Of a DNA stretch of 64,000 nucleotides, positions 3,981 through 47,582 are shown piece after piece. The notes beneath the pieces were generated by a model, which was given only the letters and a program-made list of their open reading frames with translations, made no database searches and was not told the DNA's origin. How positions within the stretch are numbered: the stretch's first letter is position 1; each line of letters starts with the position of its first letter. Position numbers and translations under genes: made by a program. The DNA comes from Octopus vulgaris (lineage: Eukaryota), in the NCBI GenBank assembly GCA_951406725.2, contig OX597835.1:30628001-30692000 (forward strand). Reading direction: 5' to 3'.

Positions 3981-4015
3981 GTTTATGAAGAAGAGCATTA
4001 CTCGAAATGTTAAAC
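3981..4015 (+). ncRNA. Degenerate ultra-short hammerhead (extra-A class) inside element 3911-4120
   Basis: GUUU AUGAAGAA GAG-cauua-CUC GAAA UG UU AAAC; C3 is mutated to A. Confidence 0.5.
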
Positions 4016-4169
4016 CATCTTTCTTTCTTTCCCTGGGCGTGTTTGTTCTTCTTTGTTTGGGGAATACAATTAAATATATTATTCTCTCATTTTCAAATGC
4101 ATATTTTTTAGCATATATATGTATTTGCGTGTGTATGCTTGTGTGTGTATAGCAACAGTAGCCATATGT

Positions 4170-4690
4170 GCAAAGCAAATTAAATATAATTTGGGATTTT
4201 TTGCGAAGGGATAAAAGTGGTAACAAGAACAGGACAGTAAAAACAAAACAAATAAATGCGGTAAAATACAGGACAAGGAGAATAACACAGTAAAGACAAA
4301 CGGTAAGGGCTGTTAAGCCTTTGTTTTTACTGTCCTGTTTTTGTTACTACTTTTATCCCTCCGCAAAAAATCCCGAATTTTATTTAATTTGCTTTGCGGG
4401 AAGGACTGCTTCAACAAAGTCGAGTCTTGCCCTTACCTTCGAAACACGGTGTAGACGAAATAGAGGCGGCTGAAGAAGAGGAATATTCCTTGTGTTGTAT
4501 GTCTTATACTCTGTTTTTTCGTTGTTTGAAAAAAAGTCCGTTTCCATGGTTTTGTTTTTATGTTTTCGTTATTCATTGTGTTCGACGTCTTTTTAGTGTC
4601 CTGTACTTATATATGCATGTATATATGCATATAGATGTAGGTATGTACATATGTGTATGTATATATGGATATGGTTTATTTATTAGTTTG
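4170..4690. mobile_element. Hairpin (arms 4170-4247/4320-4397) plus tail element; tail family recurs at about 14190-14440
   Basis: About 78-bp imperfect inverted repeat. The segment cgaaa(t/c)agaggc(g/a)gctgaagaag..aaaaaagtccgtttcc is shared with 14210-14300. Confidence 0.6.
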
Positions 4691-4895
4691 TTATTATATA
4701 TATATATATATATATATATATATATATTTATATATATACGTACATACATGCACACACATACGAACCCCCACACACATATACATACACACACATAAATATA
4801 TAGGGAAAATTCAAGAAAAAAACAACAAAAGACGAAGACAGGTGGTGTAGAAAACAAGCAGATGTATTAGTATAACGCTCGGGAATTGAAAAAGT

Positions 4896-4931
4896 CTTTA
4901 ACGTTTCAAGCCTACGTTCTTCCACAGAAAA
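4896..4931 (-). ncRNA. Ultra-short hammerhead variant (CUGUNGAA core) inside element 4801-4970
   Basis: UUUU CUGUGGAA GAAC-GUAG-GCUU GAAA CG UU AAAG; stem II partly decayed. Confidence 0.5.
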
Positions 4932-5661
4932 GAACACACAAACAAACAAGGAGAAATACAAGGAGAGAATATATATATATATATATATATATATATATAT
5001 ATTCTAAAGACATTGTATTGTTGCAAATAGCAGAAGCTGAGGTTTTTGCCCTCATTCCATGGTGTCTGAAGATTTCAAAACTAATAGATTCAATATCGAA
5101 GCTTCTCTGATCATAAGTCCGTTCGCTTGGAGCTATGATACAGTTAAATAGCAATAACTAATCAATCAATCAACCAACCAGCCAACCGAACGTCACGCCA
5201 AATAACTAACTAATTAAAACAATTAATGAACAATACAATTAATGAACTAGCAATGTATTTTCTAATATATTTTCTAATTCGTTGATAAAATATCTTTGAA
5301 ATATTCTTTTGTGTTAATATGTTTGGATGTGGGTGTATGGGTAGGTGTGGGTAGTAAATATGTTCATTTAACTGTATATGTATATGTATATATATATATA
5401 TATATATATATATGTATGTATGTATACACAAAACATCCATGATGGAAACAACAAATGCACATCGATGCACACACACGCACACATATACACACACACGTAT
5501 ATGAATATATGTATACATGCACATACATATATTCAGATACGTATATGTGTAGATGTATATATATACATATACGTATATGTAGATCTATTCATACTTATAG
5601 AAGCATGTGTGCATGTATATATATATATACATACATATATATATATATATATATACATATA

Positions 5662-5822
5662 TACGACGGGCTTCTTTCAGTTTCCGTCTACCAAATCCAC
5701 TGACAAGGCTTTGATCGGCCCGAGGCTATAGTAGAAGACACTTGCCCAAGGTGCCACGCAGTGGGACTGAACCCGGAACCATGTGGTTGGTAAATAAGCT
5801 ACTTACCACACAGCCACTCCTG
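5662..5822 (-). mobile_element. SINE family A, 5' part
   Basis: Reverse complement of 42734-42893. Confidence 0.85.
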
Positions 5823-6707
5823 CTGTGTGGTATATATATATATATATATATATATATATATATATATATATATATATATATATATACATATATATATATG
5901 TGTATATATATATTATTTGCATTGGTTCCAGATAAACTCTCGTTTATCCTGTTGTTACTTGCACTCTACATGTATGCTGTGTCTGCACACCAATGCCCGG
6001 GGATAAAACATAAAACTCAAACCGATAGCATATATGTGGATATTTTATCCCTTAATCCATTATTATAACCGCTAACTCTGTTTACACACGCACATGCACA
6101 CACATACACTCACACATACACTCACATACACACACCCACACATATATTGATGCACACAAGTAAATACATAAATGTAAAACAAATTGGAATAGATAGTACT
6201 CGATTACCGAAGATAGAGTTTTTAATTGAAGTCGAATAATATTCTCACAAACTGTCCCTCGGAGTATTACGTTACCGTGTGTCGGACAGTTGTAATCAAA
6301 ACAGTCCAACGAATGCTAACGTGATACACAGAGTGACAGTCTTGTGAAGAATATTTTCGTTTCTAGTACATGCGAGTGTATGAGAGTGTATACGTGTGTA
6401 TAGATAAATAGATAGACACATAGATGAAATTGATAAATTAGATAAATAGGTGTGGTAAGAAGCTTACTTCCCAACCACATCACTCCATGTTCAGTCCCAC
6501 TGCATGGCACTTTGTGCAGTTGTTTTCTACCAGAGCCCCGGGCTGATCAAAGCCTTGTGAGTGGATTTGGTAGACGGAAACTAAAAGAAGCCCGTTGTAT
6601 ATATATATATATATATATATACATATATATGTATGTATGTATGTATATATATATATATATGTATATATATGAATAAAAAATGGAGTTAACGCAGGCTTAA
6701 ACAAGTA

Positions 6708-44778: not shown

Positions 44779-44909
44779 ACTTTTTCTATTCCTGAGCGTT
44801 ATACTAATACTTCTGTTTGTTTTGTACGCCACCTGTCTTCGTCTTTTGCTTTTTTCGTAAACTTCCCCTATATATATATATATATATATATATATATATA
44901 TATATATAT

Positions 44910-46050
44910 GGAAACATAATTATTTCTCAATCTCTCAAAGAGTGATATGCAGTTACATTTCTTTAAAGTAAACATTTGCCAACATAATGTGGCTGTCCTG
45001 GAAGCGACGATTGTTACTGTTTTTTATTGCAGCCCTTATTTGTTCCACGTACTTATCGAGATTTTTACTCACTTTTCCTAGGGCTCCGACAATTATTGGT
45101 ACTACTGCAACCTTTTTCATCGAACACAACTGCTAAACTTCCTAAGCTAACCTGTCATATCTCTCAACTTTTCTTTCCTCCCTATCTCATACCTTGTTCT
45201 CGGCAGGGCATGCTATATCTATGATCCAGCATAGTTTGTTTTCTTTCTCAATTAAGACTATGTCTGGCTTCCTATTCTCTATCTTATGGTCGCACTGAAT
45301 CATAAAATCCCATAAGATCTTTGTATTTTTATTTTCGACAATGCCTTTTTCTTTTCCTTCGAGAGCATTCTAACCCTGTCTGGATTCTTCTTTTCCACCA
45401 TGGATCTTTTCTTTCGTCACTCCCATTATGTTCCTTTTTCTTGGCATTATCACCCACGATTTCAGCTACAACAATACTTGCTGCCTTGATCAAATTATTT
45501 GTTTCTGTGATGTTGTTTGTTCTGACGTATTTCAAAATTTCATTGACATATTTCGTTTCTTGGTTCAATTTCCATCGATCAACCTTTATAAGGTTGCAAA
45601 TAATGTCGCTATCGTTCTCCTGTAGTCTTGCCTTTATTCTGTCTTAGATTGCCTTTTGTTCATTTGTCATGTCACCATTAGTTTTATTGCCTTCTTTTAG
45701 ATCATCTCTATGTCTCTCATCAAGTAAACTACCACTGCTCCTTTCCTGTACTATGGGATTACGCTTATTAATAAGAATTGTATATATATATATATATATT
45801 TGTTATCATTGCTGCTATTTTCCATGATCCGACTTTTGATAGCTTCAAGTTCTATTTCTGTAAACCAACAATTTTTCTTTTACTGCTCAAGCTTCATCAC
45901 ATAGATTCTATTCCGTGAATGGAAACAGTCCCTTTTCCCTCCAATGATCATACATACGTTGTCGACAACACCTAATTTGGGCACCATTTTCATCTATTGG
46001 GCTGCTCAGGTAGTAAGACTCTATGAGCACAGCATTAATTTGCTTGCACC
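44910..46050 (-). mobile_element. R4/Dong-like non-LTR retrotransposon N-terminal fragment, next to (TAA)n
   Basis: ESYYLS..RQRMYDHW..TEIELEAIK and NITETNNLIKAAS..PWWKRRI resemble the N-termini of R4/Dong ORFs. Confidence 0.6.
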
Positions 46051-46514
46051 ATTATTATTATTATTATTATTATTATTATTATTATTATTATTATTATTAT
46101 TGTAACCCCAAGACTGCGAGTTCAATTCCAGGCAGTGCCTTGAATAAAAAATAATGATAATAATAATTTATTTCTTTATTGCTCACAGGGGATAAACATA
46201 GTGGGGAGAAACAAGGACAGACAAGGGAATTAAGTCGATTACGACGACTCCAGTGATTAACTGGTACTTATTTAATCGACCACGAAACGATGAAAAGTAA
46301 AGTCGACCTCGGTGAAATTTGAACTCAGAACGTAACGGCAGACGAAATACCGCTAGGCATTTTTCCGGGCGTGATAATAATAATAATAATAATAATAATA
46401 ATAATAATAATAATAATAATAATAATAATAATAATAATAATAATAATATCAACATCAGCAAAAAAAAACCCTTAGGAATGAGAACCCAAGGTTAGATTCA
46501 GAATACTACCAGGA

Positions 46515-46556
46515 CACCTAATGAAGGCTGGAGAGTTAATCAGCCGAAACTTTGTG
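46515..46556 (+). ncRNA. Degenerate hammerhead (extra-A class) inside element 46468-46612
   Basis: CAC CUAAUGAA GGCUG-gagaguuaau-CAGCC GAAA CU UU GUG; G5A and stem III mutations. Confidence 0.45.
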
Positions 46557-46692
46557 GTAGCAACAAAGATGAGGACACATATCCGTCCAATGTAAATAAT
46601 GTAAATAAGGTACATATATATATATATATATATATATATATATATATATATATATATATATATATATATATATATATATATATATAATATAT

Positions 46693-46920
46693 AAATGACC
46701 ATTCCTAAATACAACAATATGTATATATATATTTATATATATATATATATATATATATATATATATATATATATATATATATATATATATATATATATAT
46801 ATATATATATAAATATATACATATTGTTGTATTTAGGAATGGTCATTTTGCCAGTTTAGCCAATAAATACAACAGTATGTTTCAACACACGATTTCACAT
46901 CAAAAATCTTGCAAAACAAA
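46693..46920. repeat. Palindrome with a (TA)n centre and a one-sided tail
   Basis: aaatgaccattcctaaatacaacaatatgtata ... tatacatattgttgtatttaggaatggtcattt (46693-46848). Confidence 0.8.
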
Positions 46921-47534
46921 TATATATATACATGTATATATACATATATATATATACATAAATATATATATATATATATATATATATATATATATATATA
47001 TATATATATATATATATATATATATATATGTATATATGTATGTATGTATGTATGTATGTATGTATGTATGTATGTATGTATGTATGTATGTATGTATGTA
47101 TGATGATATGTAAATGTAAGAGCTAAGGATCAAGATGTGGGAGGTTAGTAAATTTCGAGCAGTCCGTAGAAGCTATAAAAAAAAAGTTTGGGGAACTATA
47201 GTGGTTTATTGACCTAGAAGGGTGTAAATGTTTCCCATATCGAAGTTCGATAATCTGAAACAAGTTATTTTATAGTTCAAGGTTAACAGGTAGGTTTGCT
47301 GAGTATGCAAACAAAAATCTAAAATGAGGAAATGGAGTAGATAATATAAAGGCTATACTTAGGTTTCATAGCTTGCAGAACCTCGGAAGTAGCAATTACC
47401 CAAACGATTGGCAATCCGCTTGCAACTTGTTGGGTCAAAGACAACTTAATCAAATATATATATATAACTTTTTTCCGTAATGAGATAAAAAAAAACCAAG
47501 GCTGTGTAGATTTTAGAACATTTATAAATAGAAG

Positions 47535-47582
47535 GTCTTACAGCTGTTTCTAGGATATTTATTATATCCCTTTATCGGAGAC
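47535..47582 (-). ncRNA. Degenerate type I hammerhead
   Basis: GUCU CCGAUAA A GGGAUAU-aauaa-AUAUCCU A GAAA CAGCUG UA AGAC. All three stems are intact, stem III is the palindrome ACAGCUGU, and the core carries U4C and G8A. Confidence 0.6.

What the first reader, a model, noticed from the sequence alone, without database searches (positions are those of the whole stretch)
3981..47582. About 12 dimer-type hammerhead ribozyme motifs from several unrelated short element families in 44 kb
Seen: type I hammerhead folds at 3981(+), 4896(-), 6708(-), 7788(+), 24977(-), 33433(-), 33743(-), 43282(-), 43405(+), 44743(+), 46515(+) and 47535(-). Stem I sequences differ between families yet pair (UGAAC/GUUCA, AUGCAG/CUGCAU, GUCU/AGAC, ACUUUC/GAAAGU, GUUU/AAAC). 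Where intact, stem III is palindromic or nearly loop-less (ACGU, AGUACU, ACGAUCGU, ACAGCUGU, ACUC-A-GAGU, ACA-UG-UGU) and is followed by a UH site. Known: Penelope-like elements and retrozymes carry minimal type I hammerheads that cleave as dimers. Inference: this genome holds a large, diverse and unannotated population of non-autonomous PLE/retrozyme-like elements.
Basis: partly seen in the sequence, partly recalled or inferred. Interest (0 to 1): 0.88.

Follow-up and report, generated by a model that had tools for sequence, protein, structure and literature searches.

The report
Penelope retrotransposon hammerheads, many core-altered
The motifs are the hammerhead-shaped RNA ends of eight families of Penelope-type jumping genes, a known kind of element, but this genome (likely an octopus) holds an estimated 200,000 copies and about half of the intact-looking ones carry a changed catalytic letter that would likely slow self-cutting, which has not been tested.

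Summary
All 12 motifs are there, plus a 13th at 60-120. Seven pass a strict descriptor (0.13 hits expected per shuffle); five are decayed copies of families whose other members fit. They belong to eight dispersed repeat families with 82 copies in a blind 1 Mb sample, about 2x10^5 genome-wide. They are not retrozyme arrays. Six of the eight families lead upstream into Penelope-like (PLE) RT/GIY-YIG coding sequence. One (E) is an intact 778-aa Hydra-type element with a hammerhead in each tandem end repeat. Copies show PLE insertion marks: (TA)n flanks, head-to-head inversions, one-sided tails. PLE hammerheads are known; one is published for an octopus. Not found in print: the density, U4C cores in 7 of 8 lineages (including the intact element), and an A6U family (14,944 exact copies vs 158 with A6) whose ORF-bearing relatives keep A6. 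Cleavage is untested, and the key 2017 paper on PLE hammerhead variants was unavailable. This scan noted A6U and the tRNA-headed family before on other DNA of this genome.

The parts
60..120 (-).
   Evidence: intact relatives in L185 and L224
3981..4015 (+). Family G/A-lineage motif, decayed (C3A, stem II break, CG>TG); most G copies read CCGACGA (U4C)
4896..4931 (-). Family A motif, A6U core (CUGUGGA), two private stem II changes; in a ~190-nt unit at about 4776-4965 between (TA)n
6677..7907 (.). Family E insertion: head-to-head pair of 5'-truncated Hydra-type PLE ends (minus arm about 6677-7598 with the GIY-YIG region; plus arm 7564-7907 with an internal deletion between ORF end and hammerhead)
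6713..6798 (-). Family E hammerhead, U4C core CCGAAGA, long stem II, stem III ACAUGUGU, UA site
7788..7869 (+). Family E hammerhead, inverted partner (99% identical over 120 nt)
24977..25014 (-). Family A motif, intact for its family: UCUUU/AAAGA stem I, CUGUUGA (A6U), ACGU stem III, UA site
33402..33642 (-). Family C fold-back insertion: inverted arm with ~65-nt tail, then direct copy with hammerhead 33439-33497 (U4C, ACUC-A-GAGU, UU site)
33743..33831 (-). Family D hammerhead, canonical core, U-U at the base of stem II, ACGAUCGU stem III; long copies elsewhere carry a Hydra-type endonuclease upstream
43159..43603 (.). Family B head-to-head palindrome between (TA)n, hammerheads 43282-43326 (-) and 43405-43449 (+), canonical core, ~30-nt tail on the plus arm only; long copies elsewhere carry RT and GIY-YIG coding sequence
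44743..44778 (+). Family A motif, CUGUAGA (A6U), CG>TG decay in stem III; unit about 44712-44872 between (TA)n
46097..46612 (+). Family H end repeat: remnant of a tRNA-like head (about 46100-46140), (AAT)n linker interrupted by another SINE, decayed hammerhead 46514-46557 (G5A, stem III change)
47535..47582 (-). Family F hammerhead, U4C plus private G8A; most relatives read CCGAUGA; one long copy carries a Hydra-type endonuclease upstream
48478..48709 (+). Second family C fold-back insertion; neither arm holds a whole hammerhead

Best explanation
These motifs are minimal type I hammerhead folds in the end repeats (pseudo-LTRs) of eight Penelope-like retrotransposon families, likely copied into the genome as short, mostly 5'-truncated ends by the elements' own RT-endonuclease, and predicted to cut RNA only in pairs and, with U4C or A6U cores, likely slowly. 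Shown here: the folds, the families, their abundance, PLE coding sequence upstream in 6 of 8 families, tandem end repeats 2,862-2,863 nt apart in intact E elements, head-to-head inversions with junctions that differ from copy to copy, one-sided tails, (TA)n flanks, and the core variants. Inferred from published PLE work: the protein nicks AT-rich DNA and starts reverse transcription at one of two sites just 3' of the hammerhead (hence the optional tail), usually stops early, and often makes a second inverted copy. Two same-strand hammerheads occur together only in transcripts of tandem elements, where the palindromic stem III can pair between them. The single or back-to-back copies in this window could pair only in trans and are probably mostly inert. 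Family A is best read as a short derivative of an RT-coding parent with a canonical core; it fixed A6U and then outnumbered the canonical form about 95 to 1.
For: Descriptor vs shuffles: 8 vs 0.13 in the window; 48 vs 1-6 in 100 blind 10-kb stretches. E: 778-aa open frames in 3 of the 5 E loci fetched (730 and 686 aa in the others), RT motifs and C-terminal GIY-YIG-like region, tandem repeats 99% identical, all with CCGAAGA. B: RVT_1 E=2.4e-7 and GIY-YIG E=4.4e-6 upstream of the hammerhead. D and F: endonuclease similar to E upstream in sense (E=1.7e-9 and 7e-7). A: RT-thumb and endonuclease similar to B upstream in long copies (E=4.6e-11, 2.8e-4). H: 320-640 nt shared upstream in 4 loci, translating to thumb and GIY-YIG-type motifs. 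Tail on exactly one arm in 11 of 12 B palindromes. C junctions differ between copies. H: 12 head-to-head pairs vs 1 tandem within 1 kb among the first 100 hits. RNAcofold gives intermolecular stem III for B, D, E. A6U: 14,944 vs 158 exact copies; 5 of 26 A6 vs 0 of 64 U6 copies reach >=300 nt into the parent (Fisher p=0.0015); N7 and H17 vary while U6 shows no other letter at 5% in four runs. Published: tail and two RT start sites, protein-assisted cleavage, cleavage not needed for insertion in vitro (PMC11167929, parts 1-2 of 4).
Against: No cleavage or transcript evidence. No coding sequence found upstream of C (42 copies) or G (25 copies). Pfam recognised neither the E protein nor the A, D, F, H fragments as RT or GIY-YIG, so those links rest on pairwise similarity and motifs, and for H on motifs read by eye. 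Within-lineage covariation is thin: one pair with two-sided change in 38 distinct A/G rows, essentially one event. For A, C, F, G and H the dimer MFE is not the active fold. The A6/long-copy test is biased: the four reference copies are themselves A6 copies, and 30 of the U6 loci were fetched by likeness to a short copy. The A/G tree does not resolve one origin of A6U. C inverted arms do not pile up at the predicted cut site (-3 to +22).
Confidence: 0.85

Rival explanations
1. The fold is kept mainly as a binding or start signal for the PLE protein; cutting is dispensable, so U4C and A6U spread because nothing opposes them, or because uncut RNA is the better template.
For: A6U copies outnumber A6 copies about 95 to 1. 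U4C is the majority state in C, E, F and G. In the anole PLE, ribozyme-dead mutants still insert in vitro (PMC11167929). Single changes in the CUGA turn gave low activity in a mutational scan of a type III hammerhead (PMC9901934, passages); A6C is slow and U4C reduced (PMC3088659 section 8 and passages).
Against: The other core letters, including G8 and G12, stay near-invariant across A/G subfamilies while N7 and H17 vary. U4C is enough for viroid infectivity. This reading is compatible with the best explanation and differs only in whether cutting still occurs.
Confidence: 0.35
2. They are non-LTR retrozymes: protein-free tandem repeats cut into unit-length circular RNAs that are re-inserted.
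For: A, C and G copies are mostly 150-250 nt without an ORF. One 545-nt same-strand pair of another family occurs in the sample (L134), and an earlier scan note reports a 359-bp array elsewhere in this genome (not checked).
Against: No tandem arrays for the eight families; neighbours are head-to-head, or same-strand at irregular 1.3-2.8 kb spacing. Copy ends do not sit at the cut site. Six families lead into PLE ORFs.
Confidence: 0.07
3. Chance matches in AT-rich, repeat-laden DNA.
For: Five of the twelve copies fail a strict descriptor; one extra weak hit (51558) is probably chance.
Against: 8 vs 0.13 and 48 vs 1-6 against shuffles; reversed-pattern controls 0 against 9,285-14,944 exact copies; eight unrelated sequences share one architecture.
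Confidence: 0.01

Closest known systems
Minimal type I hammerheads (min-HHR) of metazoan Penelope-like elements (Cervera & De la Pena 2014, PMC4209133; parts 1-2 of 4 read)
   Same: Type I, short stem I, missing or palindromic stem III, extra base before stem II in A, F, G, H; in end repeats; mostly single copies or opposite-strand pairs 100-700 bp apart; many families per genome.
   Different: Counts there are about 2,000-9,000 per genome; here about 1.2x10^5 intact-looking and 2.3x10^5 in all. The only core variant in the parts read is U3-A8; here U4C and A6U are family-wide.
Hydra-clade PLEs, including Hydra-1_Obim (Craig et al. 2021, PMC8557442; sections 11-12, passages, supplement part 2 and search hits read)
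   Same: Family E: under 3 kb, single ORF, RW motif, DKT, no CCHH, CxxC and CxH in the endonuclease, (TA)n flanks, 3' hammerhead. D and F endonucleases resemble E.
   Different: All Hydra-clade cores in their table read ctga; E and F read ccga. E lacks the CxCX5C linker. Their octopus hammerhead differs in sequence from all eight families here.
Poseidon_Ac of the green anole (Frangieh et al. 2024, PMC11167929)
   Same: Optional 30-40 nt tail, AT-rich targets, hammerhead in the end repeat.
   Different: Canonical core, tested in vitro; nothing here is tested. Family H has a tRNA-like segment at the start of its end repeat.
Metazoan non-LTR retrozymes (Cervera & de la Pena 2020, PMC7229834, passages; bioRxiv 10.64898/2026.07.22.740005, part 1 of 5 and passages)
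   Same: Type I hammerheads in short, very abundant repeats (axolotl up to 120,000 copies) linked to PLEs.
   Different: Those are head-to-tail arrays with canonical hammerheads and circular RNAs; these are dispersed single or head-to-head PLE ends.
Natural core variants U4C (viroid) and A6C (phage Bcep176) (Perreault et al. 2011, PMC3088659; section 8 and passages)
   Same: Same positions changed; reduced but detectable activity reported.
   Different: Rare single examples there; here U4C recurs in 7 lineages and A6U (not mentioned in the parts read) is in at least 14,944 copies.
Schistosoma Sm-alpha SINE-like hammerhead elements (figure legend in PMC6765202; details recalled)
   Same: Promoter-type head followed by a hammerhead, as in family H.
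   Different: H's tRNA-like head lies directly after a PLE ORF in long copies, so it is part of a PLE end repeat.

Membership tests
PLE minimal type I hammerhead | Type I topology: stems I and II around the core, GAAA, UH | tested here: met
   All eight families have copies that pass the descriptor
PLE minimal type I hammerhead | Short, self-complementary stem III | tested here: met
   ACGU (A, G, H), AGUACU (B), ACUC-A-GAGU (C), ACGAUCGU (D), ACAUAUGU (E), ACAGCUGU (F)
PLE minimal type I hammerhead | Canonical core CUGANGA (families B, D, H) | tested here: met
   B 19 of 24, D 26 of 30, H 91 of the first 100
PLE minimal type I hammerhead | Canonical core CUGANGA (families A, C, E, F, G) | tested here: not met
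   A: U6 14,944 vs A6 158; G: C4 in 74 of the first 100; C 24 of 42; F 22 of 35; E 27 of 33. Filed as core variants.
PLE minimal type I hammerhead | Self-cleavage as a dimer | not testable with these tools
   Folding only: dimer MFE has intermolecular stem III and swapped stem I for B, D, E, not for A, C, F, G, H
Penelope-like element | RT plus GIY-YIG ORF upstream of the hammerhead | tested here: met
   Intact in E; fragments in A, B, D, F, H
Penelope-like element | RT plus GIY-YIG ORF upstream (families C, G) | tested here: inconclusive
   None in 42 C and 25 G copies; G shares hammerhead and 3' sequence with A; one G copy has 430 nt of unexplained upstream sequence
Penelope-like element | Tandem pseudo-LTRs | tested here: met
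   E: L221, L223, L225, 2,862-2,863 nt apart; not seen for the other families
Penelope-like element | Inverted 5'-truncated copy and optional one-sided tail | tested here: met
   B 11 of 12; C tail on the inverted arm; H optional tail; inversions also in A, D, E, F
Hydra clade (family E) | RWK-type motif, DKT, no CCHH, CxxC and CxH, under 3 kb, (TA)n | tested here: met
   IRWLTFFF, SDKTGNLY, CLLC, CKH read against the description; no tree with reference PLEs was built
Hydra clade (family E) | CxCX5C linker before the endonuclease | tested here: not met
   Absent from the E protein; a CX5C remnant is present in D. E is therefore called Hydra-type, not filed outright.
Non-LTR retrozyme | Head-to-tail arrays of 150-450 nt units, each with a hammerhead | tested here: not met
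Non-LTR retrozyme | Circular RNA expression | not testable with these tools
   Only assembled contigs were on offer
tRNA-derived SINE (family H) | tRNA-like head 5' of the body | tested here: met
   34 of 54 H copies have the head within 500 nt upstream; 9 of 11 heads in the blind sample are followed by H; cloverleaf only at a relaxed ARAGORN threshold on the majority sequence
tRNA-derived SINE (family H) | Independent of a coding parent | tested here: not met
   Long copies carry PLE coding sequence directly upstream of the head

The most novel reading that the evidence does not exclude
Octopus PLEs have repeatedly tuned their hammerheads down: U4C arose in parallel in up to seven unrelated lineages, including an intact, recently active element, and an A6U short derivative out-replicated its canonical parent about 100-fold. 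This would be the first genome-scale natural evidence that weaker or lost self-cleavage favours PLE spread, in the most hammerhead-dense animal genome among those I could compare.
Probability: 0.3. Interest if true: 0.75.

Novelty: new variant of a known kind. Interest (0 to 1): 0.5.

Why it matters
What the hammerhead does for Penelope-like elements is open: it is nearly universal in them, yet cuts poorly and was dispensable for insertion in vitro. This genome offers matched natural pairs in the same lineages (U4 vs C4, A6 vs U6) with copy numbers as a read-out, and an intact U4C element for biochemistry. It also shows that canonical searches miss much of this class: 25 of 48 strict hits carry U4C or A6U and Rfam found none in six loci holding such motifs. 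Some short octopus repeats filed as unclassified SINEs may be PLE ends (not checked against that library).

Tried and rejected
Rfam: the window scan showed only microsatellite-driven miRNA-type hits in the 150 of 524 rows displayed; 0 hits at gathering score in 6 loci. The repeat finder was swamped by microsatellites and replaced by masked self-BLAST. Cut-site footprint: C inverted arms end from -3 to +22 of the cut, with 4 arms not placed and mismatch artefacts; no pile-up. Folding rationale for U4C: it lowers predicted core mispairing in B, C, E, F but raises it in G and H; inconsistent. One origin of A6U: tree unresolved, many A6 rows look like single back-mutations, plus a probable small CUGAGGA subfamily. 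First version of the long-copy test was confounded by flanking repeats (p=0.54) and redone with trimmed references. An apparent antisense RT in D's long 3' region got no significant match and is not claimed. H as a stand-alone SINE: rejected. Expression: no RNA holder listed. Literature: Lunse et al. 2017 (RNA Biol 14:1499) is not held, so I saw only its title and a review's summary; it may already list octopus or U4C/A6U variants. Searches with no relevant prior report: 'hammerhead ribozyme'+'Penelope'+'octopus' and 'octopus'+'hammerhead ribozyme' (41), whose only relevant hit is Craig 2021; 'hammerhead'+'A6U' (56; one twister paper, listing only); 'hammerhead'+'U4C'+'core' (57; Perreault only); SINE+Penelope-like+tRNA-derived+hammerhead+non-autonomous (104; none). 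Supplements of Cervera 2014, Perreault 2011, Roberts 2023 and the 2026 repeat paper were not read and may bear on novelty.

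
Full report
Setting. The window is G000:C22:30628001-30692000 in a 2.8-Gb genome of 227 contigs. It is 29% simple repeats and holds one homeobox exon (22241-23263, Pfam Homeodomain E=5.5e-22).

Observation. All 12 motifs are present. A strict type I descriptor finds 7 of them plus one weak hit, against 0.13 per local dinucleotide shuffle (30 shuffles) and 0 in the reversed window. 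The five that fail carry private mutations but belong to families whose other copies pass. A 13th decayed motif lies at 60-120. The 12 fall into eight families: A (4896, 24977, 44743), G (3981), H (46515), B (43282, 43405), C (33439), D (33743), F (47535), E (6713, 7788). A and G are related; the rest share only the architecture.

Abundance. In 100 stretches of 10 kb chosen blind at round coordinates (small chromosomes somewhat over-sampled) the descriptor gives 48 hits against 1, 5, 6, 5 and 6 in five shuffles, about 1.2x10^5 intact-looking motifs genome-wide. Profiles of the eight families find 82 copies in the same 1 Mb (A/G 41, H 13, C 10, D 8, F 6, B 2, E 2), about 2.3x10^5; clumping makes both figures rough. 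Exact whole-genome counts give hard floors: 14,944 for an A pattern, 10,969 for G, 9,285 for H, with reversed controls at 0. Published counts are about 2,000-9,000 for fluke, coelacanth and frog (PMC4209133), over 6,000 for a coral, about 5,000 for a mussel and up to 120,000 for the axolotl (PMC7229834).

What the families are. [quoted passage not shown] Its motifs fit the Hydra clade except for the missing linker. B: long copies run into RT (RVT_1) and GIY-YIG with a CxxxxCxxC linker, Neptune-like by that linker. D and F: an E-like endonuclease lies upstream in sense. A: four long copies share about 0.75-1.1 kb of upstream sequence, and two of them give protein matches to B's thumb or endonuclease. 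H: four loci share 320-640 nt upstream that translate to thumb and GIY-YIG-type motifs; Pfam did not score them and the label Poseidon-like is recalled. H also has a tRNA-like head and an (AAT)n linker between ORF and hammerhead. C and G gave no ORF in 42 and 25 copies.

Insertion anatomy. Copies of most families sit between (TA)n runs. Close same-family neighbours are head-to-head: B 11 of 11, D 2 of 2, F 1 of 1, E 8 of 11 with the other 3 being tandem end repeats; H 12 head-to-head, 1 tandem, 1 tail-to-tail among the first 100 hits. In B a 30-nt tail is on exactly one arm in 11 of 12 palindromes. In C the junction differs between copies, so the fold-back forms anew at insertion. These are the published PLE marks (PMC8557442), and the tail was traced to two RT start sites in the anole element (PMC11167929). 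Retrozyme-type arrays were not found for these families.

Core variants. Of the 48 strict hits 18 are canonical, 16 U4C, 9 A6U and 5 other. U4C occurs in 7 of 8 lineages: E (27 of 33, and all intact elements), G (74 of the first 100, with 21 CUG, 3 CCA, 2 CAG), F (22 of 35), C (24 of 42), B (5 of 24), H (5 of 100), D (one copy). The low CCA count shows that most CUG copies in G are a true subfamily rather than CpG decay. U4C copies of G look younger (nearest-neighbour identity 0.967, n=9, vs 0.919, n=8), but the tree nests the U4 copies among them, so the direction is not settled. A6U: 14,944 vs 158. In contigs of four public runs under four organism labels, N7 shows all four letters and H17 two, while U6 shows no other letter at 5% (85% likeness). 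Copies reaching 300 nt or more into the parent are 5 of 26 with A6 and 0 of 64 with U6, with the biases stated above. Covariation within A/G is real but slight (86.8% of cells paired, one pair with two-sided change).

How it most likely works. Shown: structure, family links, insertion marks, variant frequencies. Inferred: PLE protein reverse-transcribes from just 3' of the hammerhead at AT-rich nicks and mostly yields short ends, often with an inverted partner. Predicted: cleavage needs two hammerheads, supplied in cis only by tandem elements, and perhaps the protein; U4C and A6U would slow it, by published mutational data on other hammerheads. Untested: any cleavage or expression.

Against known things. 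PLE hammerheads that work as dimers are established, opposite-strand pairs were described in 2014, and one octopus PLE hammerhead with a canonical core is tabulated. A 2026 octopus repeat paper counts 31 recently active Penelope-like families and about 900 unclassified SINE families and does not use the word hammerhead in its main text. My searches found no report of the density, of A6U, or of recurrent U4C in PLEs, but the most relevant paper (Lunse et al. 2017) could not be read. Earlier notes of this scan reached the A6U and tRNA-head readings on other DNA; I had seen both before those look-ups, and one note led me to test and confirm H's coding parent.

Verdict. Observation confirmed; interpretation partly right. 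A known kind of element, with unusual scale and two widespread core variants that make an open question testable. New variant of a known kind; interest 0.5.

Noticed in passing
window 22241-23263 (-): Homeobox exon (Pfam Homeodomain E=5.5e-22); the sequence looks like NK1/slouch (label recalled). The hammerhead elements lie around it, not in it.
   Followed up: partly
window 26377-26793 (+): Fragment of a LINE-type RT C-terminal region (weak DUF6451 hit; RTE-like by recall).
   Followed up: no
window 5664-5822, 6450-6595, 35297-35529, 42945-43110, 46212-46373, 50767-50999, 56585-56754, 62826-62983 and others: Several abundant SINE-like families; one copy has inserted into the (AAT)n linker of the family H element.
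   Followed up: no
L002, L015, L017, L018, L019, L134, L177 (family B); family C and A 5' ends: Short copies begin at or near an AG that follows a pyrimidine-rich run 15-60 nt upstream of the hammerhead, like a 3' splice site; the B palindromes are centred there. May echo the end-repeat intron of Drosophila Penelope.
   Followed up: no
L347-L376, L378:6621-8720 (family D): About 1.3-1.9 kb of very AT-rich sequence between endonuclease and hammerhead, shared by many copies; it looked like decayed RT on the opposite strand but gave no significant match.
   Followed up: partly
L134:915-966 and 1460-1511 (-): Two identical canonical hammerheads 545 nt apart on one strand, a family absent from the window; candidate tandem unit.
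   Followed up: no
L111:1560-2000: A U4C family G copy with about 430 nt of C-rich upstream sequence that starts with a coding-like stretch; possible parent of G.
   Followed up: partly
L107, L108, L122, L130, L177, L181, L185, L017: At least eight further hammerhead families not present among the 12, several also with U4C.
   Followed up: no
L175:7500-8200: A family A-like copy split inside the hammerhead by an insertion of about 440 nt with inverted ends.
   Followed up: no
window 51558-51623 (-): Weak AT-rich descriptor hit with C3A; probably chance.
   Followed up: no
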